64,000 nt of DNA from Escherichia phage vB_Ec-G1: sequence record PQ433349.1. One strand, given 5' to 3'. The notes beneath the pieces are model-generated. The model did not search any database. It was given only the letters and a program-made list of their open reading frames with translations, and was not told where the DNA came from. Positions within the stretch are counted from its first letter, which is position 1; each line of letters begins with the position of its first letter. This document shows, one piece after another, positions 6,129 to 62,358 of the stretch. The position numbers and the translations under genes are program-made.

Positions 6129-6205
6129 ATGGACTTGTAGAGTTAAGGTAAACCCCCAGTCGCCAATAGGCTTCTGGAATTGCAGGTATCGAATCCTGCC
6201 GAGTC
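6129..6205 (+). pseudogene. tRNA-like element, probably non-functional or non-canonical
   Basis: acceptor-like GGACTTG/CGAGTCC and T-arm-like GCAGG-TATCGAAT-CCTGC (8-nt loop) but no convincing anticodon arm and no CCA. Confidence 0.3.
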
Positions 6206-6211
6206 CCAGCA

Positions 6212-6286
6212 TTGCTCCTATAGTATAATGGCTATTACAACGGTTTTGTAATCCGTGGATCTCTGTTCGATTCAGTGTGGGAGCAC
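6212..6286 (+). tRNA. tRNA-Thr: tRNA-Thr (anticodon TGT)
   Basis: acceptor GCTCCTA/TGGGAGC, anticodon stem ACGG/CCGT with loop containing TTTGTAA, T-loop TTCGATT, CCA. Confidence 0.6.
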
Positions 6287-6561
6287 CAACACAACATTAA
6301 GAGCACTGTGATTGATCGTCGTATCCTGTGCACAAGGTCTGCTCGAAAGACAGTGTTCTTAGTATTGTGTTGATCACAAAAAGAGTCACCCGAAACTTGA
6401 CCGGAGTAGGGTTGGATGGGGCAAAATGAGAAGCGGCTCTCCCATCGACAGCAACGAAGAATAATATTTGACTTTGGTTTTGTATTATTTTAAGTTAGCT
6501 TACCGAACGTAGGGCTAGTCACCCAACGGGATACTCGTCACTGTCCCAATCAATAAAAGTC

Positions 6562-6591
6562 TTGACAACAAATAGTAAAATGTAGTATAGT
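6562..6591 (+). promoter_or_regulatory. sigma70-like promoter upstream of tRNA-Gly
   Basis: TTGACA 6562-6567, 18-nt spacer, TATAGT. Confidence 0.55.
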
Positions 6592-6602
6592 AAATATATA
6601 GG

Positions 6603-6676
6603 GCGTTCTTGGTGTAGCGGTAGCATTCCGTCCTTCCAAGTCGGCGGCACGAGTTCGATCCTCGTAGAACGCTCCA
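6603..6676 (+). tRNA. tRNA-Gly: tRNA-Gly (anticodon TCC)
   Basis: acceptor GCGTTCT/AGAACGC, anticodon loop CTTCCAA, T-arm ACGAG-TTCGATC-CTCGT, CCA. Confidence 0.7.
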
Positions 6677-6772
6677 AATTATTTAATAAAGGGTTGCCAG
6701 AAAACTTTCTCTTTTACTCATGGTTTTCTCCTTCTCTCACACTTCTTCTGGTTGCCCTTCATTAAATGATTT

Positions 6773-6850
6773 ATTGGTTTGTAGTGTAGTCCGGTAGCAC
6801 ACGACACTTTGACTGTCGTAGGTTTGGTTCAAATCCAGACAGACCAGCCA
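6773..6850 (+). tRNA. tRNA-Gln: tRNA-Gln (anticodon TTG)
   Basis: acceptor TGGTTTG/CAGACCA (U1-A72), anticodon arm CGACA-CTTTGAC-TGTCG, T-arm TTTGG-TTCAAAT-CCAGA, CCA. Confidence 0.7.
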
Positions 6851-6855
6851 TATAA

Positions 6856-6932
6856 CGGAGTTTAGCTCAGTTTGGTAGAGCATACGCTTTGGGAGCGTAG
6901 GGTCGCAGGTTCGAATCCTGCAATTCCGACCA
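6856..6932 (+). tRNA. tRNA-Pro: tRNA-Pro (anticodon TGG)
   Basis: acceptor CGGAGTT/AATTCCG, D-stem GCTC/GAGC, anticodon arm TACGC-TTTGGGA-GCGTA, T-arm GCAGG-TTCGAAT-CCTGC, CCA. Confidence 0.8.
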
Positions 6933-6938
6933 ATTAAA

Positions 6939-7012
6939 TGTTTCGTAGTTCAATGGTAGAACCCACGACTGATAATCGTGAGACACAAGTTCGATTCTTG
7001 TCGAAACAACCA
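6939..7012 (+). tRNA. tRNA-Ile: tRNA-Ile (anticodon GAT)
   Basis: acceptor TGTTTCG/CGAAACA, D-stem GTTC/GAAC, anticodon arm CACGA-CTGATAA-TCGTG, T-arm ACAAG-TTCGATT-CTTGT, CCA. Confidence 0.8.
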
Positions 7013-7014
7013 GT

Positions 7015-7084
7015 TTCCCGTTAGACTTACAGGATAAGAGTTCCACAGCTTATTGTGATGCTGGTTCGAATCCAGCACGGGATA
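7015..7084 (+). tRNA. tRNA-like gene, anticodon unresolved (possible pseudo-tRNA)
   Basis: T-arm GCTGG-TTCGAAT-CCAGC and acceptor TTCCCGT/ACGGGAT (1:72 mismatch) but only a 4-bp CACA/TGTG stem with 6-nt loop where the anticodon arm should be; no CCA. Confidence 0.35.
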
Positions 7085-7090
7085 CATAAT

Positions 7091-7169
7091 AGCGGGATAG
7101 AGGAGTCTGGTCGTCCTCGCCAGTTTCATATGCTGGAGATCATCGGTTCAAATCCGATTCCCGCCTCCA
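7091..7169 (+). tRNA. tRNA-Met: tRNA with CAT anticodon, second copy (1:72 mismatch, initiator-like feature)
   Basis: acceptor AGCGGGA/TCCCGCC, D-stem GAGG/CCTC, anticodon arm CCAGT-TTCATAT-GCTGG, T-arm ATCGG-TTCAAAT-CCGAT, CCA. Confidence 0.65.
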
Positions 7170-7325: not shown

Positions 7326-7354
7326 CTTGACTTATTATTTTTTATATGCTAAGA
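7326..7354 (+). promoter_or_regulatory. sigma70-like promoter
   Basis: TTGACT, 17-nt spacer, TAAGAT, then RBS AGGAGG and ATG at 7377. Confidence 0.6.
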
Positions 7355-7376
7355 TAAAGTTTAGGAGGATTTTATT

Positions 7377-7984: not shown

Positions 7985-8051
7985 TAATGCCCCTTCTCTT
8001 CCTAAAATAAAATTTTACGAGGAAGTAGAAGATAATGAATCTAAAGACTAA
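7914..8051 (+). CDS. hypothetical small protein (alternative frame)
   Basis: ATGATG after GGAGGAAG; 45 codons; overlaps 7814-7984 in another frame so at most one is likely real. Confidence 0.3.
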   Translation: MMTEKTWEEILAEAQPMEVKKIVNNAPSLPKIKFYEEVEDNESKD

Positions 8052-8427
8052 AACTGTATTAGGTTTTGTTTTAATTGTTGTTCTTATTCTTGCCGGAATG
8101 TTTGCTTATAACAAGATACGTGAGTCTGGCTACAAAGATGGTGTTGCCTATCAAACGCAATTATATCAAGCAGCCCAAGCAAAAGCAAAACAGGATTTTG
8201 ATGTTCTTCAAAAAAGAGCCGATGAAGAAAGAGCATTATTAAATACCCAAATAAACAACTTGTCTAAAAACAATGCACAATTAAAAGCAGATTTAGAGAA
8301 GAAGAAACAAACGATCAATGAGGATACAACGAATTATGCAAAAACTAATTCTGGCAGTATGTCTTGCTTTGCCCCTAATGATGACGGGTTGTTCATCATC
8401 AACAAAAGTTTCCCCAGTTCTTATTGA
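8035..8427 (+). CDS. putative i-spanin (Rz-like inner-membrane spanin subunit)
   Basis: 130 aa; N-terminal TM segment VLGFVLIVVLILAGMFAY then coiled-coil-like segment; o-spanin-like lipoprotein gene overlaps its 3' end in another frame. Confidence 0.6.
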   Translation: MNLKTKTVLGFVLIVVLILAGMFAYNKIRESGYKDGVAYQTQLYQAAQAKAKQDFDVLQKRADEERALLNTQINNLSKNNAQLKADLEKKKQTINEDTTNYAKTNSGSMSCFAPNDDGLFIINKSFPSSY

Positions 8428-8662
8428 TGAGTGTAAGGCTGTAGCCATAGAAAAGGTTAAAGGTCCAGATTCAGACTTGATGGATAAAGTATCGACACCT
8501 GTGCCATACACTAAAAATAAAATTGCAAAAGGGGTCAGTAGATCTGAAGTTGTTAACAACCAAACTCAAAACAACGCTCTTTGGGAGCAAGATAGACGAA
8601 AGGTTTTAGGTTTACAAACATATATTAAAACACTGCAAGAAAAAGGTATTATTGCTGAATAA
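8336..8662 (+). CDS. putative o-spanin (Rz1-like outer-membrane lipoprotein)
   Basis: signal peptide with lipobox LMMTGC; overlaps i-spanin out of frame; alternative start at 8318. Confidence 0.6.
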   Translation: MQKLILAVCLALPLMMTGCSSSTKVSPVLIDECKAVAIEKVKGPDSDLMDKVSTPVPYTKNKIAKGVSRSEVVNNQTQNNALWEQDRRKVLGLQTYIKTLQEKGIIAE

Positions 8663-8671: not shown

Positions 8672-10747
8672 GTGGCAAAGAAAAAGGCAGCAGGTAGTTT
8701 AGCTGGAGTAGATATTGAAGTAAAGGCTCAACCAGGTAAACAGACTCTTGCAATGGATTTAATGCCAGAAGTTATGATTTATGGTGGTGCCGCTGGATGT
8801 GTTTCTGCTGAAACGGAATATCTTACAAAAGATGGTTGGAGACAGATTAGTGAATATTCAGGAGAGGATATTTACCAATACAACCCTAAGAATAAGCGTT
8901 TAGAATTGGTAACACCTTATTTTGTAGAATACGATTTAAATGGAGATAACCTATACAGAATAACAAATGGTGTAGGGTTGTTCCAAGAACTTAGTATGGA
9001 ACACCGTTTTGTATTCTATAAGAAAAAGAAATCAAAGAAACATTTCGAGATTCTTGTAGGAGATCTTATTGCATTACAGCAAATAGGAAAACCCCTTCAA
9101 GGTTATGTAGAAAATCCATTCGGTAAACGTGTTCCTTTTAACATACCTGGTAAAAAGAGCACTTACTTAAAAATACACGAGGTTATTTCAACAGATGATA
9201 AGAAATATTGTTTTGAGACTCCAAGCAGTTATATTGTCTTTAGACGTGGCGATCACTGCTTCGTTACTGGGAATAGCGGCAAGTCTCGTCTGCTATTGCT
9301 GAAAGCTTTAAAATACGCCTACAAAGATCCTTTGTTTGGTGGAATACTTTTTCGTAAGAACACCACTGCTCACCGTAAACCAGGTGGTCTGTTTACAGAA
9401 GCAAAACGTTTGTATCTTCCTTTACAACCGCACGTAAAAGAAAGTACAATGGATATCATTTTTGAAGCCACTGGTGGCGGAACCCTCAAATTCGACCATT
9501 TGGAAAATGATAACGTAACAGCAGAAACAAACCATCAGGGTACACAGTATTCAATGGTAGGTTTTGACGAGTTAACCCACTTCACGCAATATGAAATGCT
9601 CTATCTTCTGGGACGTATGCGTTCAGAATCAGAAACAAGCTTCATGTTGTGCACATGTAACCCCGATGCAGATAGTTGGGTTTTGAATTGGGTGTTACCT
9701 TATCTTGATGAGGGTGGTTATCCTAGAGAAGATATGTGTGGTAAACAAAAATATTTCATCATTGTTAACGATGAACCTGTTTTTGCTGACACACCTGAAG
9801 AACTGAAAGAAAAATATCCAGAAAACTGTTTCATGGAAAACCCTAATACAGGGGAGACAGTTGTTATTGAACCACAAACTTTCGTATTTATTGGTGGGAC
9901 AATATTTGATAACCCAGAACTGATTAGGCTTAACCCTAATTACTTAGCACAGCTTAAATCACAAACAGCAATTAAAAGAGCACAGCTTCTGGATGGTTGT
10001 TGGTTTGCACGTATTCAGAAAGAATCTTTCTTTCAACGTGAATGGTTACATAAAATATCTTATAAAGATGTTCCTAACAATCTTAAACTAATGCGAGCCT
10101 GGGATAAAGCTGTTTCAGTTCCTACAGAAACTTATCGTTATCCAGACTATACAACGTCTGTCAAAATGGGTAAAGATCAAGATGGTAATATCTACATCTT
10201 TGGTGACTATGACTATGACGCTGTGGATGAGAAAAGTAAAATTTTCGGAAGGTTTAGAAGACTACCTGGGGAAAGGGATAATCTGATTCTTAATCAATGT
10301 AAGATTGATGGACCAGAAGTTACAGTAGTGCTTCCTAAAGACCCATCTGGTGCTGGGACAATAGAATATACAGAGTCTGCAAAGAAACTTATTCTAGAAG
10401 GTTTTGTTGTTAAACCAGATGCTATGCCAGGTAACAAGAAAAAGCTTCAGCGTTTTATGCCTTTTAGTAGCGCGTGTCAAAATGGTTTTGTTTATATTGT
10501 TGAAGATTCTTTCCCTAATGTGGAAACTCTAACCCACTTTTATAAAGAATTGGAATCTTTCAATGGTGAAAGATCTACAGCCACTATTAAAGATGACATT
10601 CCCGATGCTGCTGCTTCTTGTTTCAATACTCTGTCAAAAGAGAATACTTTCAAGGCAGTAGCTATCCCTGCAACAACAAATGCTCCTACAGGATACAGTA
10701 GAATGAACAGCGGATTTCACCAACCGTATAGTGTCCGTAAAAGATAA
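8672..10747 (+). CDS. terminase large subunit, intein-containing precursor
   Basis: 691 aa; GTG start after AAGGAGG; Walker A split as GGAAG/SGKS around an insert, Walker B MVGFDELTHF; C-terminal nuclease-like region. Confidence 0.85.
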   Translation: MAKKKAAGSLAGVDIEVKAQPGKQTLAMDLMPEVMIYGGAAGCVSAETEYLTKDGWRQISEYSGEDIYQYNPKNKRLELVTPYFVEYDLNGDNLYRITNGVGLFQELSMEHRFVFYKKKKSKKHFEILVGDLIALQQIGKPLQGYVENPFGKRVPFNIPGKKSTYLKIHEVISTDDKKYCFETPSSYIVFRRGDHCFVTGNSGKSRLLLLKALKYAYKDPLFGGILFRKNTTAHRKPGGLFTEAKRLYLPLQPHVKESTMDIIFEATGGGTLKFDHLENDNVTAETNHQGTQYSMVGFDELTHFTQYEMLYLLGRMRSESETSFMLCTCNPDADSWVLNWVLPYLDEGGYPREDMCGKQKYFIIVNDEPVFADTPEELKEKYPENCFMENPNTGETVVIEPQTFVFIGGTIFDNPELIRLNPNYLAQLKSQTAIKRAQLLDGCWFARIQKESFFQREWLHKISYKDVPNNLKLMRAWDKAVSVPTETYRYPDYTTSVKMGKDQDGNIYIFGDYDYDAVDEKSKIFGRFRRLPGERDNLILNQCKIDGPEVTVVLPKDPSGAGTIEYTESAKKLILEGFVVKPDAMPGNKKKLQRFMPFSSACQNGFVYIVEDSFPNVETLTHFYKELESFNGERSTATIKDDIPDAAASCFNTLSKENTFKAVAIPATTNAPTGYSRMNSGFHQPYSVRKR
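8798..9274 (+). mobile_element. mini-intein (159 aa) inserted in terminase Walker A P-loop
   Basis: insert begins Cys43 (CVSAETEYLTKDGW), has TxxH-like SMEH, ends ...FVTGN201 followed by Ser; excision restores GGAAGSGKS. Confidence 0.7.
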
Positions 10748-10750
10748 TTG

Positions 10751-10779
10751 TTGACAAAAGTCACTTTAAAGTGTATTAT
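10751..10779 (+). promoter_or_regulatory. sigma70-like promoter upstream of portal gene
   Basis: TTGACA-N17-TATTAT with TG immediately upstream of -10. Confidence 0.65.
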
Positions 10780-10848
10780 AACTAGATAGGTGAGGTTGTA
10801 TATAATACAGCCTTGCCTTAACGATTTTATACCTGACTGGAGGAACAA

Positions 10849-12414: not shown

Positions 12415-12443
12415 AAATATTTAATATTTTTTAATTTTTCTAT

Positions 12444-12472
12444 TGACAAAACAACAAATATCCTGTAGACTA
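12444..12472 (+). promoter_or_regulatory. possible sigma70-like promoter (weak -10)
   Basis: TTGACA 12444-12449 then TAGACT about 17 nt downstream. Confidence 0.35.
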
Positions 12473-12507
12473 AGATTTATGGGATATCTGTTTTTAAGAG
12501 GTTTCAA

Positions 12508-22977: not shown

Positions 22978-23679
22978 ATGGCAGCAATGACTCCACAACA
23001 GTCGGTGAGAGCCGTCTATAAGGCAGAACAGGAAATCAACTCTACCGAGAATAAAAATACCTCGGCATCTACCGTAAAGGGTGATAATGGTTTCTGTATT
23101 TTAGCAAGTGTTTATAATAGTTCAAGCGATCAATACATTCAAAACTTTAAAGCAATTACTTTCGATTCAGTCCCTGAAATAGGTGTAACTCGTGAAGCAG
23201 ACGTTACAAGTTTTCCTGTGGAATCAGGATCGGATGTAAGCGATCATGTTCAGATAAAAAATAACAGATTTAAACTTTCAGGTATAATTACCGAAACACC
23301 AATTCGGCTTATGCGAGATCAATTATACAGTGCAGGTGTAAATGGAGCAAGGATTTCTCAAGCAATAGAATATCTAGACCAAATATTTGAGGCAAGACAA
23401 CCAATAGTTCTTTTGACAGAACACAGAACTTTTGAAAATGTTATCCTCAAAGGTTATTCGTATGATTATAAATCTGAATTTGCTATGCAATTTGATTTAG
23501 AGTTTGAACAAATCCGTCTCGTTTCTAAGGCCACTACTAACGCTATTGCTGTAAAAACAGCACCAAATAAGTCAACTGGTGGTGATGTGAAAGGTCAAGT
23601 TGCTTCGAATGGTCCTAAGTCAGATATTACAGTAAGAACTGCTGAAGCTACTAATACCCCAACAAACAACGGAGGTTAA
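22978..23679 (+). CDS. tail/baseplate assembly protein (putative)
   Basis: 233 aa, first gene after tape measure. Confidence 0.45.
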   Translation: MAAMTPQQSVRAVYKAEQEINSTENKNTSASTVKGDNGFCILASVYNSSSDQYIQNFKAITFDSVPEIGVTREADVTSFPVESGSDVSDHVQIKNNRFKLSGIITETPIRLMRDQLYSAGVNGARISQAIEYLDQIFEARQPIVLLTEHRTFENVILKGYSYDYKSEFAMQFDLEFEQIRLVSKATTNAIAVKTAPNKSTGGDVKGQVASNGPKSDITVRTAEATNTPTNNGG

Positions 23680-23681
23680 TA

Positions 23682-24095
23682 GTGACAACTTATTCTAAAA
23701 CAACAAGGTCTACAAGTAATACAGGCTACAGTGCAGTTTATCTGGAGGACCATTCTACTTATTTTGCATGGTATCTGAAAACTGAAGAGTACCCTGATCA
23801 AACATATACAGTTACATTGGATGGAGTTGATTATGACATTCGTTTAAGGTGGAACACTAGGGACGAGTCTTGGCAATGTCAGATAGGATTATCTGGAGAT
23901 GATCCAAGTATAAGTTTCAAAGTTACAAATGGTTTAGATCTTCTTAAACCTTATAAATATCTTGAAAGTGTGCCAGATGGTCAATTGTATATAGTAGATA
24001 CAGTTAAGATTAATGGTCGTCCTGGGTATACAACTACAGGTCGAGATAAACGTTTTGTATTGGTTTATATTGATAACAAACCTAATCAGGCGTAA
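23682..24095 (+). CDS. tail/baseplate protein (putative)
   Basis: 137 aa, GTG start after ACGGAGG. Confidence 0.45.
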   Translation: MTTYSKTTRSTSNTGYSAVYLEDHSTYFAWYLKTEEYPDQTYTVTLDGVDYDIRLRWNTRDESWQCQIGLSGDDPSISFKVTNGLDLLKPYKYLESVPDGQLYIVDTVKINGRPGYTTTGRDKRFVLVYIDNKPNQA

Positions 24096-34104: not shown

Positions 34105-34409
34105 ATGAAATGTTCTCCCAAGGTGGTAAAGGTTCAACCGGAATCTTAACCAATAAACAAGCAGTAGCCCGTCACTTTGGAGTTAAACAATCTGAGGTTG
34201 TTTACTTCTCAGTTGGTGTGGATTTGGGTGGGTATAAGGTTGTCTATGATAAGGAGACGCAAAGGGCGTATTCCCTACCTGCTGATATTGCCTCAGGTAT
34301 TACTGCCATTAGTCTTAGTGCTGCTGTACTTGTGCATTCAGCGGGTTCTGTAGACCTTGGGGAATTAGCTGTATATCGTGATTTAAAAAGTAATGAGAAC
34401 GCACCATGA
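34101..34409 (+). CDS. hypothetical protein
   Basis: 102 aa, RBS AAAGAGG. Confidence 0.45.
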   Translation: MNEMFSQGGKGSTGILTNKQAVARHFGVKQSEVVYFSVGVDLGGYKVVYDKETQRAYSLPADIASGITAISLSAAVLVHSAGSVDLGELAVYRDLKSNENAP

Positions 34410-34648
34410 GAAAATTTTTAATAGGTATGTTTTGTACATATCCTGATAATAAAGTCAGTTCTACTAAAGTCTGGAACGCTGTAGGCATGTCGGTTATGAC
34501 AGGCATGTTTATCTTTTTAGGAATAGAAAAAGAAATTCCTGAATGGATGGGTTGGGCTTTTGTTTTCATGATAACCCCTTCTCGCCTCATGAAAAATCTT
34601 ATTGATTTACGTTGGGGCAGATCACAATCTACCAAAGAGGATGACTAA
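34406..34648 (+). CDS. small membrane protein with two predicted TM segments (holin-like topology)
   Basis: 80 aa; hydrophobic stretches VWNAVGMSVMTGMFIFLGI and WMGWAFVFMITPS, charged C-terminus. Confidence 0.4.
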   Translation: MRKFLIGMFCTYPDNKVSSTKVWNAVGMSVMTGMFIFLGIEKEIPEWMGWAFVFMITPSRLMKNLIDLRWGRSQSTKEDD

Positions 34649-47987: not shown

Positions 47988-48032
47988 TGAATGCTATCCT
48001 ATCATAAAATGTTTAATATTGTCAAGCTTTAA

Positions 48033-53822: not shown

Positions 53823-53855
53823 TTTTACTTCTCCTCTTGTTTGGTTGATGAGACA

Positions 53856-53884
53856 AGTATAAGTCCCTTCCGCAAAGTTGTCAA
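53856..53884 (-). promoter_or_regulatory. sigma70-like promoter (minus strand)
   Basis: minus-strand TTGACA-N17-TATACT between terminator hairpin and gene 53391-53822. Confidence 0.6.
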
Positions 53885-53888
53885 CAGG

Positions 53889-55705: not shown

Positions 55706-55984
55706 TTAAAATGGTTCGTTAGTCTCCATCATATATTCTGCTTCTAGTTCTTCCATGTGCTTTCTAAATTGGAAAGCAATTTCTGCTACAGTTACATTTA
55801 AATCTTTTTCAAAAACTTCTGTAGAGCCTTCATAAAAACGAATACCGTCAATTAAAAGCCCTCCGTGGTAATCCCAATCACTTTCACGAGAAAGCGGGTT
55901 AGGCTCTTCATAATAGTAATCCACCTCCACGACTAAGGCTTTCCCGTTACGAGTGGTGTATTCAAAATCAAAAGTGTTAATCAT
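55706..55984 (-). CDS. hypothetical protein
   Basis: 92 aa. Confidence 0.5.
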   Translation of the reverse strand: MINTFDFEYTTRNGKALVVEVDYYYEEPNPLSRESDWDYHGGLLIDGIRFYEGSTEVFEKDLNVTVAEIAFQFRKHMEELEAEYMMETNEPF

Positions 55985-56928
55985 TATAGCTCCTCAAATA
56001 AAAGTCTACGACGCTCATTCAACACATCAATGTGATAATGAGTCCTGACATACTTAGCTAATGCTAATCCTTTCTCCATGCAAACATCGGGAGCACTTAA
56101 TAAGTATTCCGTAATATCTTTCCACTCGGAAGGTGTTTCAGCAAAGAATAACAGATCTTTAAACTCTTGTGTATGATAATTCTCACGAGGAGAACAGATC
56201 AAAGGTAAACCCTTAGCACCTGCCTCAAGAATTTTAAGATTGCTTTTTGCATTATTAAACACGTTATCAATCAATGGCGCAAGACTGATTTGATGACCAT
56301 CGTAAGATTCCATGTAGTTGGCATATGGTCTTACACCTTCATAAACACAAGTTGGTGCTACATTTTCCCTGATTACAGACCATTCACGACTACTTAAAAC
56401 TTCAGAATCCCTACGAAAACCACATATTGTAAGATCTTTACCAAAATCGGGCAAGATAGCCAAATCTTGTTTATGTGTTTCACTTCCAGCCCAGACTAAT
56501 GGAGTTTTGGAGTAGCGATCACGGGTCAACACAAATTGACCTTCATCGTAAGGAAGTCCATTAGGGATTATGTGCACATTATCATTGTATTGTGAAAGTT
56601 CAACTTGCAAGGCAGGTGTCGTAGTTGTAACAAGGTCACTGTGCTCTAAAAACCATTTTAAATGTTCACGAATACCTGATTCAAAAATACCTTCTAACAT
56701 GTGTCCTTTTGGAATAACTAAAGAGTCATCCAAATCCATAACCATTTTAAAGCCTAGGTTTTTAAGGGCTAAAAAGCCCTCTTTACCTTTTGTTGGCACC
56801 CCGTTAAAAACGAAAACGTTGTGTTTAGGTTGTGAAGAGAACTGCCTTGAGTAAGGCAGCACTACCCTATGGAAATCGCAGACACTATAATTGATTCCGT
56901 TACGATTGTCAAGAATTATTTGTCCCAT
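55984..56928 (-). CDS. glycosyltransferase-like protein (GT-B-like)
   Basis: 314 aa; KILEAGAKGLPLICS; paralogous to 56936-57883. Confidence 0.55.
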   Translation of the reverse strand: MGQIILDNRNGINYSVCDFHRVVLPYSRQFSSQPKHNVFVFNGVPTKGKEGFLALKNLGFKMVMDLDDSLVIPKGHMLEGIFESGIREHLKWFLEHSDLVTTTTPALQVELSQYNDNVHIIPNGLPYDEGQFVLTRDRYSKTPLVWAGSETHKQDLAILPDFGKDLTICGFRRDSEVLSSREWSVIRENVAPTCVYEGVRPYANYMESYDGHQISLAPLIDNVFNNAKSNLKILEAGAKGLPLICSPRENYHTQEFKDLLFFAETPSEWKDITEYLLSAPDVCMEKGLALAKYVRTHYHIDVLNERRRLLFEEL

Positions 56929-56935
56929 ACATCAC

Positions 56936-57883
56936 CTACAAACTTTCAATAACCTGGCGTCGCAATTCGTTTGCATCTGCCAGATTGTAGTGTGTTCGAA
57001 CATGTTCAGCCAAGAACAAGCCACGATCTTCCCGATAGTTTGGATTGCGAAGAAGCTTAACAATTTCGTAATGCCATTCTGCTTTATTCTCTGCGTAAGC
57101 AACAGCACGAGCATCTACAGGGTTAAAATAAGGTAACACCTTAGAACAAACAATCGGAATACCTTTTGCCCCAGCTTCCAGGATTTTGAGATTACTTTTG
57201 CAATTATTAAAATCATTATCTACCAAAGGAGCTATAGCAATAGCATGACTTTCGTAAACATTCATGTAATTATCTAAATCTTTTACAGCAGCTTTATATT
57301 TGGCATTTGGTAAATTTCTGCGAATCTTAATCCACTCTTGTCCCGTGATGCTCTGCGATGCTTCATATCCCGCAATAGTAAGAAGTTCATCATCGAAAGT
57401 ATTAGAGACTAGTCGTAAATCGGGTTCGTGACTAGCACCGCCAGCCCATACAACAGGGGTACCGGATGAACGATCATTTGACAAAGTGAATTGTCCACTA
57501 TCAAAAGGAAGTGCATTTCGGATCACAACAACATTCCTATTTAAGTGACGGATCTTATATGCCAAGTATTCCGTAGTCACAATAACCACATCAGCAAGCT
57601 TAACCATAGCCACAATAGCATGAGTGTTTGACTCGTATAAACTTGCCAAATAATGCTCTGGATTAAGTTGGTAAAAATCATCTAAGTCTACAACAATCTT
57701 AACACCTTGGCGTTTCAAAGATAAAACGTATTCTGCACCTTTAGAGTGGATACGGTTAAACACAACAACATCTTTCTTAGGTTGAATATTATTGTTGTTA
57801 AATGGTATAACAATACGATGATAGTCACAACCGCTGTGAGGTTTTGCATCAATTTTTAGTTTAGACCATTTTTTATTTGACAT
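56936..57883 (-). CDS. glycosyltransferase-like protein (GT-B-like), paralog
   Basis: 315 aa; shares CD(F/Y)HR, VDLDD, P(L/V)VWAG, APL(I/V)DN.FNN.KSNLKILEAGAKG, VRTHY with neighbour. Confidence 0.55.
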   Translation of the reverse strand: MSNKKWSKLKIDAKPHSGCDYHRIVIPFNNNNIQPKKDVVVFNRIHSKGAEYVLSLKRQGVKIVVDLDDFYQLNPEHYLASLYESNTHAIVAMVKLADVVIVTTEYLAYKIRHLNRNVVVIRNALPFDSGQFTLSNDRSSGTPVVWAGGASHEPDLRLVSNTFDDELLTIAGYEASQSITGQEWIKIRRNLPNAKYKAAVKDLDNYMNVYESHAIAIAPLVDNDFNNCKSNLKILEAGAKGIPIVCSKVLPYFNPVDARAVAYAENKAEWHYEIVKLLRNPNYREDRGLFLAEHVRTHYNLADANELRRQVIESL

Positions 57884-58556
57884 GTGCTAGTGCCTCCTCA
57901 TAAGAAAGTCGGATTTTCCCATTTTTAATATCCTCTAAAGATGCTTTGTATTCTTCCCAGTTAATACCAATAGCAGCTTCTTTCTCTTCTTTTGTCAGAT
58001 TAGCAAAAGGCATAGGATTGTTTCCAAAAACATCGTCTGGGTGGATATAAGCCATGATACGAAGTGGACAAGGTGTTGCCTGAATACCATGATTCAAACC
58101 AGCAGCTTTCAAACGGTGTCCCCATTCAGCATCTTCAAAACCATAACCGTGAGTGTAAGGGCGGAAATAACCCATCTTCTCAACAACGGCACGAGAATAC
58201 ATTGCAAATTGACACATTGCAAGTTCCCAGAGAATAACTTCTCCTTTGCTTCCAACAACTTTATCTTTGAAATACTCCGGCATACCAAAGAAATCCCATC
58301 CTCCAGAAACAGCCTGATCTACAAAGTATGTTTCCCATCCTTCCATGACTGGGTAGCAATCATCGTCAAAAATAAACCAATAATCATAACCTTCTTCATA
58401 AAACTGGTGCATAAGTTCATTCCTGGCATAAGCTACACCTTTACGATCTGGATCGTTGAATACTCGAAAATCTGCACGTGGATCTGTTACAAGGTAGTCT
58501 TTAAGTGGACGGACGCCTACAGTGATAACACCCACTCCGATTTTAATATTTTCCAT
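57873..58556 (-). CDS. glycosyltransferase (GT-A-like, DxD motif)
   Basis: 227 aa; YWFIFDDDCYP. Confidence 0.55.
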   Translation of the reverse strand: MENIKIGVGVITVGVRPLKDYLVTDPRADFRVFNDPDRKGVAYARNELMHQFYEEGYDYWFIFDDDCYPVMEGWETYFVDQAVSGGWDFFGMPEYFKDKVVGSKGEVILWELAMCQFAMYSRAVVEKMGYFRPYTHGYGFEDAEWGHRLKAAGLNHGIQATPCPLRIMAYIHPDDVFGNNPMPFANLTKEEKEAAIGINWEEYKASLEDIKNGKIRLSYEEALAHVK

Positions 58557-58564
58557 TATCTCTC

Positions 58565-59128
58565 CTAAATAGTTTTACTGTGATCGTGACAGTGTAATAA
58601 ATGATGTATAGACCGTTGAGGATTTGTTTGACCTAATCTGTAAATGTGAAACAGATACATTCCCCGCATCAATCCTAACCTCTTTCCTTTTTCATGTAAA
58701 GTGCGAGAGAAAATTAAGTCGAATTGGATAGATTTTTCTTCGAAAGGAATTTCATTCCACAACGATTTTCTAAAAAGCAAAAAGAAACCTGCCAGAGGTG
58801 TTCCGAAAGGAACTTCTTCAACACTCACTTTATGATATTCTCTTGCAATCTTAGCATATTCTATATGGTTTAGAATATCTGGATCATCGTTAATTTGGTT
58901 AGAGAAAAGCTGATAACCACTACCTAACCTGTTACAAGTTGCACCTATTACATCAAAAGGTGGGTTTGAAATAACAAGCTCTTCAAGCATAGATGGTTGA
59001 TCAGGCAGGAGGAACATTGTATCGGTATCTCTTAAGCACACCCAACTATCATCTGGAAGAACGGCAATAGCTTCATTGATAGCCTTGCCGATATTTCCTG
59101 TCAGATAGGGAGTAATATAATAAATCAT
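58565..59128 (-). CDS. putative glycosyltransferase-like protein
   Basis: 187 aa; N-terminal YYITPY...LRDTDTMFL DxD-like pattern; weak assignment. Confidence 0.4.
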   Translation of the reverse strand: MIYYITPYLTGNIGKAINEAIAVLPDDSWVCLRDTDTMFLLPDQPSMLEELVISNPPFDVIGATCNRLGSGYQLFSNQINDDPDILNHIEYAKIAREYHKVSVEEVPFGTPLAGFFLLFRKSLWNEIPFEEKSIQFDLIFSRTLHEKGKRLGLMRGMYLFHIYRLGQTNPQRSIHHLLHCHDHSKTI

Positions 59129-59144: not shown

Positions 59145-59336
59145 TTAACTGTCAGCTACAATCCCACGTTTAATCATTTCTTGTTGGATTTGGATGACAC
59201 GATCTCGTGCTTCCATATATTCTTTAAAAGATTCTTGGAGATGGTCACGAGCTACATCCCGTAGTTTAATCAGTTTGTCGTTTGTCACTTCTTGAAGAGA
59301 GATCTCGCCAGTTTCATTGGTCCCAAGCGTTTTCAT
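59145..59336 (-). CDS. hypothetical protein
   Basis: 63 aa, RBS AAGGAGG. Confidence 0.45.
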   Translation of the reverse strand: MKTLGTNETGEISLQEVTNDKLIKLRDVARDHLQESFKEYMEARDRVIQIQQEMIKRGIVADS

Positions 59337-59544
59337 TTACAACCTCCTTAATAGCTACTGCACAGTTCTTACAAATACATTGACCTTTGTTCTTAGAAAT
59401 TTCAATGTAAGGTTCATTTTCGTTTTCTCCGCGTCGTGAATCGTATATTACAGTATTGAAGCAGACAACGCAAATGTTTTTAATAACGACATATTTTTGC
59501 ACTTTCTGTTTAGTGCGGAAATTGACTTCAATGACTTCTCCCAT
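59314..59544 (-). CDS. small Cys-rich protein
   Basis: start at internal ATG (MGEVIEV...) after AGGGGAG; two CxxC pairs. Confidence 0.45.
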   Translation of the reverse strand: MGEVIEVNFRTKQKVQKYVVIKNICVVCFNTVIYDSRRGENENEPYIEISKNKGQCICKNCAVAIKEVVNENAWDQ

Positions 59545-59828
59545 CAGTGAATCTCCCCTAAAATGTTGTTTTGAGACATTACTGCGGAGCATTCTACAGC
59601 ATCATGAGTCCTTGCAAAACGCTCCCACAGCACAGCATCTACTTTAAGAACCATACAAGGATAAATACTGTCGTTGATCATATCAATGCTATATTTATCT
59701 ACATCCTTTTCATCTTCCATAAACAAAGTAGCGTATGCTTCCAAATGTTTACGGGTGTAGTATACGTCCTCTTCGGTAAGACCGACAACCAGGTAACTTG
59801 CTACAACAACAGTATTATCTTCTTGCAT
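59544..59828 (-). CDS. hypothetical protein
   Basis: start at internal ATG 59828 after AAAGGGGAG; track start at 59891 is GTG without RBS. Confidence 0.45.
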   Translation of the reverse strand: MQEDNTVVVASYLVVGLTEEDVYYTRKHLEAYATLFMEDEKDVDKYSIDMINDSIYPCMVLKVDAVLWERFARTHDAVECSAVMSQNNILGEIH

Positions 59829-59829: not shown

Positions 59830-60351
59830 TTAACTCCCCTTTGGTAGATAGAAACCATGCACTTTATCTCGATAAACAAGACGCATATCACGCTCCCAGT
59901 GTGTCCTTATATTCCGTTTCTTGAAGTATAGAGCACCTTTAGTAACATCTAAAACAGACCGCAATTCAGGAAAATGTTTCTCTAAATAAAGTAAACGCTC
60001 CGCTATTGCTTTTGCTTCCTGCCACTTATCTTTCTCTGTTACGTTAAAAGTTTTCGCATATGAGAATTGCCCTTTCTGGAACAAGACTCCTCTGACTGTG
60101 TTAGGAAAGTAGGCATCATTTCTTCTATTGATTACCACATTCCCAACGGCATTCATTCCTTTTTTACCCAGACCGCGACCTTCTGCGTAAATTGCACAAG
60201 CTAATAGAATTTTATCATTATATTGCTTTGTACATTTGTGAACTACTTTAGCGGTTTTTACGTTTGCAGCTTCGGCTTTCGCCACAACAGGTGTAAATGT
60301 AAAAGCAGTTAAGGATAGTAACGCAACTGTTACAAAGTTTTTTATCAGCAA
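59830..60351 (-). CDS. secreted cell-wall hydrolase (SleB-like), candidate endolysin
   Basis: 173 aa; N-terminal signal peptide-like FVTVALLSLTAFTFTPVVAKA; CAIYAEGRG...GNVVINR; TTG start after AAGGAGG. Confidence 0.65.
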   Translation of the reverse strand: MLIKNFVTVALLSLTAFTFTPVVAKAEAANVKTAKVVHKCTKQYNDKILLACAIYAEGRGLGKKGMNAVGNVVINRRNDAYFPNTVRGVLFQKGQFSYAKTFNVTEKDKWQEAKAIAERLLYLEKHFPELRSVLDVTKGALYFKKRNIRTHWERDMRLVYRDKVHGFYLPKGS

Positions 60352-60383
60352 ATTTTGCCTCCTTTTTAAGTTAACGAATTTCT

Positions 60384-60412
60384 AGTATAACACGATAGAG
60401 GCTTTATTGCAA
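60384..60412 (-). promoter_or_regulatory. sigma70-like promoter (minus strand) for hydrolase gene
   Basis: minus-strand TTGCAA-N17-TATACT. Confidence 0.55.
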
Positions 60413-60432
60413 GAGGGGGATTTCTCCCCCTC
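60413..60432 (-). terminator. GC hairpin downstream of TerD-like gene
   Basis: GAGGGGGA-TTTC-TCCCCCTC; no clear T-tract. Confidence 0.4.
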
Positions 60433-60450: not shown

Positions 60451-61053
60451 TTATGGACATTCATACCATTCTTTTTTACCACCGAAGGCCATCACCACAT
60501 CACAAATATCCAGACCAGCTTTGCCTACACCATATGCTTTCAGCTTCCATTCCCCATCTTCACGAACCAAGGAAGCCACGTGGCAGATTGTGTTGCCAGC
60601 TACTTCAGGAGCCAGGAAGTCAAAATCCAGAATTTCCACATTGCGCTCGGAGTCGAAGATTTTAAGCATACCTTCAGAAGCATGACCAAAACGTTTCAGA
60701 CCTGTATCATCATCAATGGTCAGAACAAAGGCAATCTCTTGTGCATCAGGGGAGATTTTAGCCAGAGTAATATCAATCTGCTCCATGCTGCCAGTTCCAT
60801 CACGAACATCGTCACCAGCGAAGGTAGAACGTTCAGGATCAAACTTGTTAGCATAGCAAACCAGATGACGTGCAGACAGCATTTCAGGATTGCCAGCGGC
60901 ATTGTGACGACAAACCAGTGCACTTACATCCAGATCCAGTTTAGAATCAGATTTCCAAGAGAATTCCAGGCGCAGTTCTTTCAGAGCCGGAGCAACTTTC
61001 TTCAGGGAAATTTTTTCGCTAGAGCCTTTTTTCAGGGAAATTTTATCAGTCAT
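60451..61053 (-). CDS. TerD-domain protein
   Basis: 200 aa; duplicated ISLKK N-terminus, LDLDVSALV, GDDVRDG, GEWK consistent with TerD family as recalled. Confidence 0.75.
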   Translation of the reverse strand: MTDKISLKKGSSEKISLKKVAPALKELRLEFSWKSDSKLDLDVSALVCRHNAAGNPEMLSARHLVCYANKFDPERSTFAGDDVRDGTGSMEQIDITLAKISPDAQEIAFVLTIDDDTGLKRFGHASEGMLKIFDSERNVEILDFDFLAPEVAGNTICHVASLVREDGEWKLKAYGVGKAGLDICDVVMAFGGKKEWYECP

Positions 61054-61068
61054 CTTTTGTCTCCTCTA

Positions 61069-61338
61069 TTATTTAAGTGTAATACCAGTTACAGTCAATT
61101 CTACTTCCAAAAGCTTAGATGTGTTTTGGATTGATACTAATTGTGCATGATGGTTTAGTTCTACAGCAGAATAATCATTTTCCCCATCGTCTACTTTTAA
61201 ATAAACAATGATTTCACTAAGGTCTAAACCATTTTCGTCAAATGCATTTTCATAGACGAAAGTATCTCCTACATCCAAATCTTTAATGGTAAGGCATCGT
61301 TTATTTACTTTTTGCTCATCAATTTCGAAGTTTAACAC
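61069..61338 (-). CDS. small hypothetical protein, paralog B
   Basis: 89 aa; aligns along its length with 62360-62638 product (shared LDVG.TF, VELTVTGITLK / VDLEVTNITLK). Confidence 0.5.
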   Translation of the reverse strand: MLNFEIDEQKVNKRCLTIKDLDVGDTFVYENAFDENGLDLSEIIVYLKVDDGENDYSAVELNHHAQLVSIQNTSKLLEVELTVTGITLK

Positions 61339-61567
61339 TTCTTCCTCCTAATGTTATCTCCGGTTTGTATATACGAAGAATTATAGCGTTTTCATTTTCT
61401 TTGTCAACCCATTCTTCATAATCAGGCCATACATGAATCTCTACTCTACTTACAATATCTTCCATTCGCACAGTCCCAATGAAATACTCTTTGAGACTGC
61501 GCATAATGAAAGCTTCTCTCTCACGCCAATAATTTTCTATGACTTGAGAGGCAAGCTCGTCGATCAT
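61319..61567 (-). CDS. hypothetical protein
   Basis: 82 aa. Confidence 0.45.
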   Translation of the reverse strand: MIDELASQVIENYWREREAFIMRSLKEYFIGTVRMEDIVSRVEIHVWPDYEEWVDKENENAIILRIYKPEITLGGRSVKLRN

Positions 61568-62358
61568 TTTTTAGCACCTACTTTAACAACCCACTCTCCG
61601 AACTCTTCAGATAAGAGTTTGTCATAAAGCTCTGAATCTGTCAAGTCTAAATCTTTAATACCAATAAAACCAACATTATCATAAGCATTTGCCAGTTCTT
61701 TCAGGAAGCCAAACTTCTCATTACCAACGCCAACCATGAACCAATAAATAGGTTTATTCTTATTCTCTTCGATAAGACGACGAACAGCACTAGGATCACC
61801 ATTCTCACCATCCGTCTGGAAGAATACAACACCAGGGGTAACGTCAGCACCTGGTTCAGATACAGCTACAACTTTTTCACGCTCTACAGACACTGTTTCA
61901 GTTTTACCAAGCAGACGATTAAAGAAGCCTTTCTTTGGAGCCTCCTCTTGTACCACTTGTTTAGTGGTAATATATTTAGTAACAGTGCCAAAATACTCAT
62001 CGTAGATATCCGCCATTACAGGGGCGTAATTTGTTCCACCTCCGATACGAACATTACGCATACATTTACCAACATAGTCATCGTAAACATCTGCTGTTGC
62101 TGGAGTAAGCTCTTGGGAACTCGTATTGAAGGCCCACATATCAATTTGTTGATTATCGTCGAACAGCATACCAAAAGGAAGCAGTTTACCTACAAAATCA
62201 CTCACTACCCCACTAGAATATAGACCATGCATACTACCAGAAATATCTAGAGCACATGCTACACGAAGAACAATCTTACCTTCATTCAGGTTCTTATTCT
62301 TTTTCAGAGAGAAAGCAAGGTTTTCTTGACGTTTTTTCAGGCTGATTTTCTCGGACAT
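61564..62358 (-). CDS. von Willebrand factor A (vWA) domain protein, TerY-like
   Basis: 264 aa; MIDAS motif DISGSM; N-terminus MSEKISLKK echoes TerD N-terminus. Confidence 0.7.
   Translation of the reverse strand: MSEKISLKKRQENLAFSLKKNKNLNEGKIVLRVACALDISGSMHGLYSSGVVSDFVGKLLPFGMLFDDNQQIDMWAFNTSSQELTPATADVYDDYVGKCMRNVRIGGGTNYAPVMADIYDEYFGTVTKYITTKQVVQEEAPKKGFFNRLLGKTETVSVEREKVVAVSEPGADVTPGVVFFQTDGENGDPSAVRRLIEENKNKPIYWFMVGVGNEKFGFLKELANAYDNVGFIGIKDLDLTDSELYDKLLSEEFGEWVVKVGAKK

What the first reader, a model, noticed from the sequence alone, without database searches (positions are those of the whole stretch)
59830..60351. Secreted SleB-like cell-wall hydrolase as candidate endolysin
The protein starts with a hydrophobic signal-like segment and carries the CAIYAEGRG...GNVVINR core typical of SleB-type hydrolases (from memory). 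A signal peptide on a phage muralytic enzyme implies Sec-dependent export and possibly a pinholin-type lysis system rather than a canonical holin. It has its own sigma70-like promoter and a TTG start.
Basis: partly seen in the sequence, partly recalled or inferred. Interest (0 to 1): 0.5.

Follow-up and report, generated by a model that had tools for sequence, protein, structure and literature searches.

The report
Exported SleB-like second wall hydrolase
This gene of a phAPEC8-like E. coli phage encodes a small SleB-fold cell-wall hydrolase with an export signal, but it is already annotated in public genomes and is probably a second, accessory wall-cutting enzyme, because the same phages also carry a classical T4-type lysozyme.

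Summary
Window 59830..60351 (minus strand) is a 173-aa ORF with a TTG start. It has a signal-peptide-like N-terminus ending in an AxA site, and a Hydrolase_2 (SleB/CwlJ) catalytic domain. The AlphaFold model matches only the SleB catalytic domains in the PDB, and the catalytic Glu (E57) is invariant. The sigma70-like extended -10 promoter, the GGAGG Shine-Dalgarno and the TTG start are conserved in seven diverged lineages.

The window is a Phapecoctavirus, 99% identical to phAPEC8-like phages, where this gene is already labelled "cell wall hydrolase SleB" or "endolysin".

The reading "this is the endolysin, so a pinholin system" is only partly supported. SleB-like genes also sit apart from an annotated endolysin in T5-like and Pakpunavirus phages (both with holin-endolysin cassettes) and rV5-like phages (separate lysin).

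No holin or pinholin lies next to the gene. The spanins sit beside the large terminase gene.

The most likely role is a Sec-exported accessory murein hydrolase. This role is untested. Novelty and interest are low.

The parts
59830..60351 (-). CDS of the 173-aa SleB-like (Hydrolase_2) murein hydrolase, TTG start, TAA stop
   Evidence: ORF list. Pfam PF07486 E=1.8e-17. 99% identical to cluster P0001 from a 150-kb contig. Annotated 'putative cell wall hydrolase SleB' or 'endolysin' in phAPEC8-like records.
60274..60351 (-). Codons 1-26: predicted Sec signal peptide (n-region MLIK, h-region F6..P21, c-region VVAKA, predicted cleavage after A26)
   Evidence: Sequence. A small-x-small site is kept in all 18 close relatives although the c-region sequence varies. 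125 of 150 distant family representatives have a signal-like N-terminus. No SignalP run was possible.
60181..60183 (-). Codon of Glu57, the predicted catalytic glutamate
   Evidence: Aligns with the Glu of the YGESRG motif in SleB chains 4F55/4FET. That this Glu is SleB's catalytic residue is from my knowledge of the SleB structure papers. Invariant in the 51- and 121-sequence alignments.
60196..60234 (-). Codons of Cys40 (60232-60234) and Cys52 (60196-60198), a probable periplasmic disulfide pair
   Evidence: Both are invariant in the clade. They co-occur in 27 of 27 sequences. 82 other family members carry a different, equally strict pair at the positions of L49 and R87. The disulfide itself is inferred.
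60358..60362 (-). Shine-Dalgarno GGAGG, six bases upstream of the TTG
   Evidence: Sequence. Invariant in seven lineages.
60384..60412 (-). Sigma70-like promoter TTGCAA - 17 nt - TGn TATACT (extended -10)
   Evidence: Promoter scan. It is the only exact match of its pattern in the window. The -35, the TGn and a good -10 are conserved at the same place in seven lineages. Activity was not tested.
60413..60432 (-). GC-rich hairpin GAGGGGGA-GAAA-TCCCCCTC between the TerD gene and the promoter (weak terminator-like; no clear U-tract in this window)
   Evidence: Sequence. The stem varies among seven lineages but stays complementary. It was not reported by the terminator scan.
59145..59828 (-). Three small ORFs tightly packed behind the hydrolase gene (94 aa 59544-59828; 76 aa CxxC...CxxC 59314-59544; 63 aa 59145-59336), probably co-transcribed
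   Evidence: ORFs and overlaps. PHROGs 16257, 15360 and 5932, all of unknown function. The same three-ORF string follows the hydrolase gene in the relatives L005, L006 and L009-L012. No TM segment is visible in the sequences.
8035..8427 (+). i-spanin (Rz-like) of the phage's lysis machinery, about 52 kb from the hydrolase gene
   Evidence: N-terminal TM segment plus coiled-coil-like sequence. PHROG 4297 'Rz-like spanin' E=3.2e-35.
8339..8662 (+). o-spanin (lipoprotein, lipobox LMMTG|C), overlapping the i-spanin gene and ending 10 bases before TerL
   Evidence: Sequence. PHROG 1267 'Rz-like spanin' E=7.9e-20.

Best explanation
The gene encodes a small, single-domain murein hydrolase of the SleB/CwlJ (Hydrolase_2) fold. 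It is exported to the periplasm on its own, without a holin, and acts as a second, accessory wall-cutting enzyme. It is not the phage's holin-dependent endolysin. Proposed steps follow. (1) Transcription starts at a conserved sigma70-type extended -10 promoter. The gene heads a tightly packed string of three small ORFs, four glycosyltransferase genes and the primase/helicase gene. The signals are shown as sequence; their activity is inferred. (2) Translation starts at a conserved TTG behind a strong Shine-Dalgarno, which should keep output low (inferred). (3) The N-terminal signal peptide directs Sec export, and leader peptidase cuts after Ala26 at an AxA site. This leaves a basic enzyme of about 147 aa, stabilised by a Cys40-Cys52 disulfide (predicted from sequence). 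(4) Glu57 acts as the single catalytic acid, as in SleB, a lytic transglycosylase, and cleaves glycan strands (fold and residue shown; chemistry inferred). (5) The enzyme nicks or thins the sacculus from the periplasmic side during infection. This assists, but does not time, the final lysis. Lysis itself is carried out by the T4 E-type lysozyme, a still unidentified holin, and the spanin pair next to the large terminase gene (inferred).
For: Fold and active site: Pfam Hydrolase_2 at 64 bits. The sequence matches SleB chains 4F55 and 4FET. The AlphaFold model (pLDDT 87.6) matches only SleB catalytic domains (Foldseek probability 1.0, TM 0.69-0.76). E57, R59, R76, F96, W152 and H165 are invariant in 121 sequences. 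Export: the n/h/c build, with Pro at -6 and AxA, is retained in 18 relatives. Signal-like N-termini occur in 125 of 150 distant representatives. Two mutually exclusive Cys pairs co-occur strictly (27/27 and 82/82), as expected for disulfides in an oxidising compartment. The 36%-identical homologue CB7_83 is reported to have a signal peptide and to be toxic when expressed in E. coli (PMC7344957). Accessory role: a T4 E-like lysozyme (51% identity, catalytic triad, no signal) occurs in about as many phage records (132 against 131), and in every close relative listed by both searches. The Pakpunavirus phiMK has an endolysin-holin-spanin cassette and also a separate SleB-like gene. The T5-like DaisyDussoix has holin, endolysin and spanins, and also a separate SleB-like gene. 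In rV5 the authors name the Phage_lysozyme protein gp89 as the lysin, while the Hydrolase_2 protein gp2 sits next to rIIA. Low expression: TTG start in 7 of 7 lineages, and GTG in the rV5-like homologue.
Against: Nothing here is experimental. Export, cleavage, activity on E. coli murein, timing and dispensability are all untested. No SignalP-type predictor could be run. Gene position does not exclude a lysis role: the T5 holin-endolysin pair and T4 gene e also lie among non-late genes (T4 from established knowledge). Sigma70-like promoters also precede the structural genes, so the promoter type says nothing about timing (the same was noted for rV5 in PMC3606486). RefSeq and PHROGs label this protein 'endolysin'. 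No muralytic Pfam domain was found in the large tail and baseplate proteins. The T4 E-like lysozyme could therefore serve virion entry, which would leave the SleB-like enzyme as the endolysin. An active, freely exported hydrolase made before the end of the cycle risks premature lysis, so some restraint would be needed.
Confidence: 0.5

Rival explanations
1. It is the phage's principal (or co-essential) endolysin. It would be exported by Sec with a cleaved signal peptide and kept harmless in the energised periplasm until a holin or pinholin collapses the membrane potential, in the manner of Lys44 of oenophage fOg44. The T4 E-like lysozyme would then have another job, for example wall penetration at entry.
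For: The muralytic fold and export signal are present. PHROG 938 and RefSeq call it an endolysin. Some records annotate the T4 E-like protein as 'baseplate hub + tail lysozyme', and its best PHROG is a tail-lysozyme family. No muralytic Pfam domain was found in the tail and baseplate proteins of the window. The homologue is toxic in E. coli.
Against: The T4 E-like protein is a free-standing 166-aa lysozyme aligned end to end with T4 E. It has none of the OB-fold or beta-helix parts of a tail lysozyme. In T5-like and Pakpunavirus phages a separate holin-endolysin cassette exists beside the SleB-like gene. No holin-like gene lies next to it in any lineage examined here.
Confidence: 0.2
2. It has a role other than end-of-cycle lysis: remodelling of the sacculus during infection. 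Possible purposes are envelope changes linked to the downstream glycosyltransferases, altered muropeptide turnover, or interference with superinfecting phages.
For: It is always found outside lysis cassettes, among stress, replication or metabolic genes. In Stephanstirmvirinae it sits between the Ter module and the primase/helicase gene. In rV5-like phages it is next to rIIA/rIIB. In phiMK it is next to the DNA ligase and phosphohydrolase genes. A weak start codon is conserved. It heads a gene string with four glycosyltransferases.
Against: The glycosyltransferases are not constant partners: relatives have none to four. No known precedent was found in the literature searches. Gene position is weak evidence for function.
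Confidence: 0.2
3. It is a SAR-type endolysin. The N-terminal segment would not be cleaved but would tether the enzyme to the inner membrane, and a pinholin would release and activate it.
For: The h-region is long, rich in Thr, Ser and Ala, and only marginally hydrophobic: the best 19-residue Hessa sum is +1.6 kcal/mol. It is more conserved than the mature protein, with column identity 0.92 for residues 6-21 against 0.76-0.82. The Pakpunavirus homologue has an anchor-like N-terminus with no AxA site.
Against: An AxA-type cleavage site with Pro at -6 is kept in all 18 relatives while the surrounding c-region varies. Its end resembles the E. coli PhoA leader...FTPVTKA|R (from memory). There is no Gly in the segment, and Gly+Ala is 0.15 against 0.42-0.50 in the P1 and phage 21 SAR domains. 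There is no Cys in the segment. No adjacent small two-TM gene exists. PHROGs names no holin among the small membrane ORFs of the complete relative.
Confidence: 0.07
4. It is not exported at all, or it is a virion-associated entry lysin.
For: [quoted passage not shown]
Against: The N-terminus has a canonical n/h/c build. Conserved Cys pairs are present. The gene lies far from the structural module. The PA5oct SleB-domain protein was not found in virions by mass spectrometry (PMC7318152). A signal peptide is reported for CB7_83.
Confidence: 0.03

Closest known systems
Catalytic domain of the spore cortex-lytic enzyme SleB (Bacillus cereus 4F55, B. anthracis 4FET), a lytic transglycosylase
   Same: Same fold: these are the only PDB matches (TM 0.69-0.76, 26-28% identity). 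The active-site stretch is shared, AIYAEGRG against AVYGESRG, with the Glu conserved. Both belong to Pfam Hydrolase_2.
   Different: There is no N-terminal peptidoglycan-binding domain. It scores 52 bits against a cut-off of 236 for the SleB equivalog model. It comes from a phage of a non-sporulating Gram-negative host, whose murein lacks the muramic-delta-lactam that SleB needs (established knowledge). It carries a Cys40-Cys52 pair.
SleB-like 'cell wall hydrolases' of rV5-like phages (rV5 gp2, CB7_83, CR3_087), T5-like phages and Pakpunavirus
   Same: These are homologues at 33-39% identity, of similar size and with a single domain. The rV5-like and T5-like ones have a signal-like N-terminus. 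They are encoded apart from the phage's other annotated endolysin. A non-ATG start also occurs in the rV5-like homologue.
   Different: The neighbours differ: rIIA/rIIB, tRNA region, or DNA ligase. The Pakpunavirus version has an anchor-like N-terminus with no AxA site. Most carry a different Cys pair. None has a published activity or knockout in the library searched.
Signal-peptide endolysin Lys44 of Oenococcus phage fOg44 (from my own knowledge; cited)
   Same: A phage muralytic enzyme with a cleavable Sec signal, exported without a holin.
   Different: Lys44 is the only endolysin of its phage. It has a different catalytic fold and a Gram-positive host. Here a classical cytoplasmic lysozyme coexists with the exported enzyme.
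SAR endolysins (P1 Lyz, phage 21 R) with pinholins (from my own knowledge)
   Same: The N-terminal hydrophobic segment gives holin-independent export to the periplasm.
   Different: SAR domains are rich in Gly and Ala, are not cleaved, and are usually encoded next to a pinholin. This protein has an AxA site, no Gly in the segment and no neighbouring holin.
T4 E lysozyme (the phage's other muralytic enzyme, encoded outside the window)
   Same: Both are small, basic, single-domain murein glycosidases of the same phage.
   Different: The fold is different (Phage_lysozyme PF00959). It has no signal, so it depends on a holin. It is 51% identical to T4 E.

Membership tests
Pfam Hydrolase_2 (PF07486; SleB/CwlJ catalytic-domain family) | Profile score above the curated gathering threshold | tested here: met
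   64.3 bits against a cut-off of 27, E=1.8e-17, covering profile positions 3-100 of 100.
Pfam Hydrolase_2 (PF07486; SleB/CwlJ catalytic-domain family) | SleB catalytic-domain fold | tested here: met
   The AlphaFold model (pLDDT 87.6) matches 4F55 and 4FET with probability 1.0, TM 0.69-0.76 and rmsd about 3 A. No other PDB match reaches E<1.
Pfam Hydrolase_2 (PF07486; SleB/CwlJ catalytic-domain family) | Conserved catalytic glutamate | tested here: met
   E57 aligns with the Glu of the SleB YGESRG motif. It is invariant in 51 and in 121 aligned family members.
Spore cortex-lytic enzyme SleB proper (NCBIfam TIGR02869 equivalog) | Score above the equivalog cut-off | tested here: not met
   52.4 bits against a cut-off of 236.5. 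Only residues 37-117 match.
Spore cortex-lytic enzyme SleB proper (NCBIfam TIGR02869 equivalog) | N-terminal peptidoglycan-binding domain ahead of the catalytic domain | tested here: not met
   Hydrolase_2 is the only Pfam hit. Only about 10 residues separate the predicted signal cleavage site from the start of the well-folded domain.
Spore cortex-lytic enzyme SleB proper (NCBIfam TIGR02869 equivalog) | Dependence on muramic-delta-lactam in spore cortex | not testable with these tools
   This needs an enzymatic assay. The host is E. coli, which makes no cortex (established knowledge).
Phage endolysin (functional class: the muralytic enzyme required for lysis) | Peptidoglycan-degrading domain | tested here: met
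Phage endolysin (functional class: the muralytic enzyme required for lysis) | The phage's only or designated lysis hydrolase, or encoded with holin or spanin genes | tested here: not met
   A T4 E-like lysozyme is present in complete relatives. The spanins lie about 52 kb away beside TerL. There is no membrane protein among the neighbours.
Phage endolysin (functional class: the muralytic enzyme required for lysis) | Genetic requirement for host lysis | not testable with these tools
   No knockout or activity data were found in seven searches on lysis genes of these phages. An eighth search, for transcriptome data, also found nothing.
SAR endolysin / pinholin system | Uncleaved, weakly hydrophobic, Gly/Ala-rich N-terminal transmembrane segment | tested here: inconclusive
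   Hydrophobicity is marginal, as in SAR domains. Against that, Gly+Ala is 0.15 compared with 0.42-0.50, there is no Gly, and an AxA site is conserved in 18 of 18 relatives. These are heuristics only.
SAR endolysin / pinholin system | Partner pinholin gene | tested here: not met
   There is no small two-TM ORF next to the gene in the window or in relatives. Small membrane ORFs elsewhere have no holin annotation in PHROGs.
Sec-exported (signal-peptide) phage lysins | Cleavable N-terminal signal peptide | tested here: inconclusive
   The n/h/c architecture, the Pro at -6 and the conserved small-x-small site fit. No trained predictor or experiment was available.

The most novel reading that the evidence does not exclude
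Sec-exported SleB-fold hydrolases, encoded outside the lysis cassette and started from weak codons, could form a conserved class in many large virulent phages of Gram-negative bacteria: Stephanstirmvirinae, Vequintavirinae, T5-like phages and Pakpunavirus. This protein matches 1,222 phage records. The job of the class would not be end-of-cycle lysis but holin-independent remodelling of the sacculus during infection.
Probability: 0.2. Interest if true: 0.55.

Novelty: already known. Interest (0 to 1): 0.22.

Why it matters
The practical value is annotation hygiene. RefSeq and PHROG-based pipelines call this gene 'endolysin', while the T4 E-like gene of the same phages is variously called 'lysozyme', 'baseplate hub + tail lysozyme' or even 'hypothetical'. 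Anyone mining these phages for lysis biology or enzybiotics should know that there are two candidates, and that this one carries an export signal.

Scientifically, the open point is modest but real. A homologous exported hydrolase sits beside a canonical endolysin in at least four phage lineages, and no function has been shown for any of them. A knockout in one well-behaved coliphage would settle whether these enzymes are auxiliary lysis factors or do something else.

Tried and rejected
1. Promoter type as a clock. I hoped a sigma70-like promoter would mark the gene as early. However, near-consensus TTGACA-17-TAnnnT promoters, several with TGn, also precede the portal and other structural genes. 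The rV5 paper reports the same spread. The argument was dropped.

2. RNA structure as the cause of the unusually conserved 5' coding region, or as a translational switch like the one on T4 gene e. The leader plus first 40 codons folds no better than shuffles (z=+0.38). Rejected.

3. First structure prediction. With the 18-sequence alignment it was poor (pLDDT 57) and was not used. A 121-sequence alignment gave pLDDT 87.6.

4. Finding the holin. A hydropathy scan of the complete relative gave several small one- or two-TM ORFs, and an 80-aa membrane protein lies in the baseplate operon of the window. PHROGs names none of them a holin. This is unresolved.

5. Literature. Seven full-text searches on lysis genes of these phages found only annotation-level statements, with no activity, localisation or knockout data for this protein family in Gram-negative phages. 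An eighth search, for transcriptome data, was also unproductive. The phi92 and phAPEC8 genome papers are not held.

6. The N-terminal heuristics do not separate signal peptides from SAR domains by hydrophobicity alone. Only composition and the conserved AxA site discriminate.

7. Model coordinates could not be read, so the Cys40-Cys52 distance was not measured.

8. Intein test on TerL: see the noticed items. It was inconclusive.

Full report
WHAT IS THERE. The finding's coordinates coincide exactly with one ORF on the minus strand, 59830..60351, 173 aa, beginning with TTG. The quoted motifs are present (LLACAIYAEGRG...GNVVINRR). The next in-frame Met is residue 66, beyond the active site, so TTG is the only sensible start. 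It lies six bases after a GGAGG Shine-Dalgarno. The protein matches Pfam Hydrolase_2 (PF07486, E=1.8e-17, 64 bits against a cut-off of 27) and PHROG 938 'endolysin'.

WHERE IT COMES FROM. The region is 99% identical over 4 kb to phAPEC8-like E. coli myoviruses (genus Phapecoctavirus, subfamily Stephanstirmvirinae, about 150 kb), and 131 phage records match. In those records the gene is already annotated 'putative cell wall hydrolase SleB', 'cell wall hydrolase' or 'endolysin'. One genome announcement explicitly notes that such a phage 'encodes two lytic proteins', with Phage_lysozyme and Hydrolase_2 domains (PMC10793346). The feature is therefore real but not new.

PROTEIN ANATOMY. The N-terminus has a short basic n-region (MLIK), an uncharged stretch F6..A24 with Pro21, and A-K-A|E. 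Among 18 relatives of 59-99% identity, the hydrophobic core is the most conserved part of the protein. The c-region varies in sequence, yet it always keeps a small-x-small site. This is the pattern expected of a site that leader peptidase really uses. The end of the leader resembles that of E. coli PhoA (...FTPVTKA|R, from memory).

Of the 150 best representatives from a profile search that found 17,207 family members, 125 have a signal-like N-terminus.

Two cysteines, C40 and C52, are invariant in the clade. In a 121-sequence alignment they co-occur in 27 of 27 cases. Another 82 members carry a different, equally strict pair at the positions of L49 and R87. Such covarying pairs point to disulfides, and hence to an extracytoplasmic enzyme (inference).

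The catalytic domain aligns with SleB chains 4F55 and 4FET (E about 1e-7). With a deep alignment, AlphaFold gave pLDDT 87.6, and the only PDB matches were those SleB domains (probability 1.0, TM 0.69-0.76). Glu57, which aligns with the Glu of the SleB YGESRG motif, is invariant, as are R59, R76, F96, W152 and H165. That this Glu is SleB's catalytic residue is my knowledge of the SleB structure papers, not a tool result.

The protein is not an orthologue of spore SleB. It scores 52 bits against a cut-off of 236 for the equivalog model and lacks the N-terminal peptidoglycan-binding domain.

EXPRESSION SIGNALS. A 99-base gap precedes the gene. It is one of the very few intergenic gaps in a long minus-strand gene string running from the Ter-like genes to the DNA polymerase gene. 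The gap holds three elements: a GC hairpin, then TTGCAA-17 nt-TGn-TATACT, then the Shine-Dalgarno. In seven lineages (the window, two GenBank relatives and four metagenomic contigs), the -35, the TGn, a good -10, GGAGG and the TTG start are all conserved. The hairpin stem changes sequence but stays paired.

It gives no timing, however, because near-consensus sigma70-like promoters also precede the portal and other structural genes, as was noted for rV5 (PMC3606486). The conserved weak start codon suggests that little of this protein is wanted (inference). The rV5-like homologue starts with GTG.

THE REST OF THE LYSIS MACHINERY. The window contains an overlapping spanin pair directly upstream of the large terminase gene. 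The i-spanin is at 8035..8427 and the o-spanin at about 8339..8662, with lipobox LMMTG|C. No endolysin or holin lies beside them.

In the complete relative nieznany, a 166-aa protein at 23212..23712 is 51% identical over its whole length to T4 E lysozyme. It keeps the Glu/Asp/Thr triad (MLRVDEG..YQD..WTVG) and has no hydrophobic N-terminus. tblastn finds it in about as many phage records (132) as the SleB-like protein has Stephanstirmvirinae-level matches (131). By identity band, the counts are 64 at 95% or above in both searches, 68 against 67 at 60-90%, and every close relative individually listed in both searches carries both genes. It is not in this window.

The holin remains unidentified. 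Several small one- or two-TM ORFs exist in the complete relative. An 80-aa membrane protein with a charged C-terminus lies in the baseplate operon of the window at 34406..34648. PHROGs calls none of them a holin.

COMPARATIVE EVIDENCE. The protein has homologues in 1,222 phage records. In every lineage I examined, the SleB-like gene is an extra hydrolase, encoded away from an annotated endolysin.

- Pakpunavirus phiMK has an endolysin-holin-spanin cassette after the tail fibre genes. A separate SleB-like gene lies beside the DNA ligase gene.
- The T5-like DaisyDussoix has holin, endolysin and spanins. A separate SleB-like gene with a signal peptide lies 20 kb away.
- In rV5 the authors name the Phage_lysozyme protein gp89 as the lysin, and the Hydrolase_2 protein gp2 sits next to rIIA.
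- The CB7 paper lists three wall-degrading enzymes. It reports that the SleB-like CB7_83 has a signal peptide and is toxic when expressed in E. coli.

Within Stephanstirmvirinae the synteny is conserved: TelA, vWA/TerF-like, TerD, the hydrolase, three small ORFs, none to four glycosyltransferases, then primase/helicase.

MOST LIKELY MECHANISM. My best reading (confidence about 0.5) has four parts.

- The enzyme is made in small amounts.
- It is exported by Sec and cut after Ala26.
- It is oxidised to a C40-C52 disulfide form.
- It uses Glu57 to cleave glycan strands from the periplasmic side, independently of any holin.

On this reading it assists rather than times lysis. Lysis itself is executed by the T4 E-type lysozyme, an unknown holin and the spanins. 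What is shown: the ORF, the fold, the active-site residue, the signal-like N-terminus, the conserved expression signals and the presence of a second, classical lysozyme. What is inferred: export, cleavage, the disulfide, the chemistry, low expression and the accessory role.

RIVALS.
(a) It is the true endolysin, with a Lys44-like control (0.2). In its favour are the database labels, the ambiguity over whether the T4 E-like protein is virion-associated, and the absence of a muralytic Pfam domain in the tail proteins. Against it are the cassettes in other lineages and the free-standing, full-length T4 E likeness of the other enzyme.
(b) It has a non-lysis remodelling role (0.2), suggested only by gene neighbourhoods.
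(c) It is a SAR endolysin with a pinholin (0.07). The conserved AxA site, the composition and the lack of a partner gene argue against this.
(d) It is not exported, or it is a virion lysin (0.03).

NOVELTY AND SCORE. The gene, its family assignment, the two-hydrolase content of these phages and the signal peptide on homologues are all already in public records or papers. What this analysis adds is the following:

- the conserved AxA site;
- the covarying Cys pairs;
- the conservation of the promoter, Shine-Dalgarno and TTG start across seven lineages;
- the demonstration that the gene is systematically a second hydrolase outside lysis cassettes.

That leaves a small, testable open question: what exported SleB-like hydrolases do for large virulent phages. 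It is not a surprising finding. Interest is about 0.2.

Noticed in passing
window 60217-60351 (first ~45 codons of the hydrolase gene) and the same stretch in L005, L006, L009-L012: Synonymous sites are unusually conserved at the 5' end of the gene. Given the same amino acid, the same codon is used in 0.68-0.75 of comparisons in codons 1-40, against 0.26-0.57 further on. In phiWec179, 20 of 21 codons (2-22) are identical, against about 35% elsewhere. No stable RNA structure explains this (z=+0.38).
   Followed up: partly
window 7330-7362, 10748-10785, 12440-12475, and minus strand 53850-53885 and 48000-48030: Near-consensus sigma70 promoters (TTGACA/TTGACT, 17 nt, TAnnnT, several with TGn) stand in front of structural genes such as portal, as well as replication genes. 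The phage seems to use host-type promoters throughout, as reported for rV5.
   Followed up: partly
window 8672-10747 (large terminase, GTG start): The Walker A motif reads GGAAG...SGKS. It is split by about 160 residues that begin with Cys (CVSAETEYLTKDGW) and end with ...HCFVTGN followed by Ser, which is the boundary pattern of an intein. Pfam aligns the terminase domain only from residue 202. Neither Pfam nor a PDB sequence search detects a Hint domain, so this remains a pattern only.
   Followed up: partly
window 34406-34648 (+): An 80-aa protein with two hydrophobic segments and a charged C-terminus (...RWGRSQSTKEDD) is wedged between a tail-spike N-terminal module and the baseplate J gene. 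PHROG 1322 calls it 'membrane protein'. Its topology is holin-like and it sits in a late operon, so it is a candidate for the missing holin.
   Followed up: partly
window 5239-7169 (+): A cluster of 10 tRNA genes (Met, Arg, Ser, Asn, Thr, Gly, Gln, Pro, Ile, Met) lies upstream of the spanin and terminase genes.
   Followed up: yes
window 60451-62358 (-) and upstream in relatives L009, L012: A tellurite-resistance-like module lies immediately upstream of the hydrolase gene and is syntenic with it in all relatives. It comprises TerD (60451-61053) and vWA-TerF-like (61564-62358), with TelA and TerC further upstream in relatives.
   Followed up: no
window 55984-59128 (-): Four consecutive glycosyltransferase genes lie downstream of the hydrolase gene. 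Their number varies from none to four among relatives. Complete relatives also carry dTDP-rhamnose synthesis genes next to the T4 E-like lysozyme gene. The target of the glycosylation is unknown.
   Followed up: no
window 59145-59828 (-): Three small ORFs follow the hydrolase gene in every lineage and overlap or abut it. One has a CxxC...CxxC zinc-ribbon-like pattern. All three fall in PHROGs of unknown function and none shows a membrane segment.
   Followed up: no
window 20863-46587 (+), tail and baseplate genes: Pfam finds no peptidoglycan-degrading domain in ten large tail, baseplate and fibre proteins. How the virion crosses the wall at entry is not evident. The T4 E-like lysozyme could conceivably be involved.
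   Followed up: no
L007 (rV5-like EduardKellenberger) 2044-4953; rV5 supplementary table: In rV5-like phages the SleB-like gene lies directly upstream of rIIA/rIIB. Its other neighbour (rV5 gp3) is a homologue of T5.083. This hints at a small module shared between rV5-like and T5-like phages.
   Followed up: no
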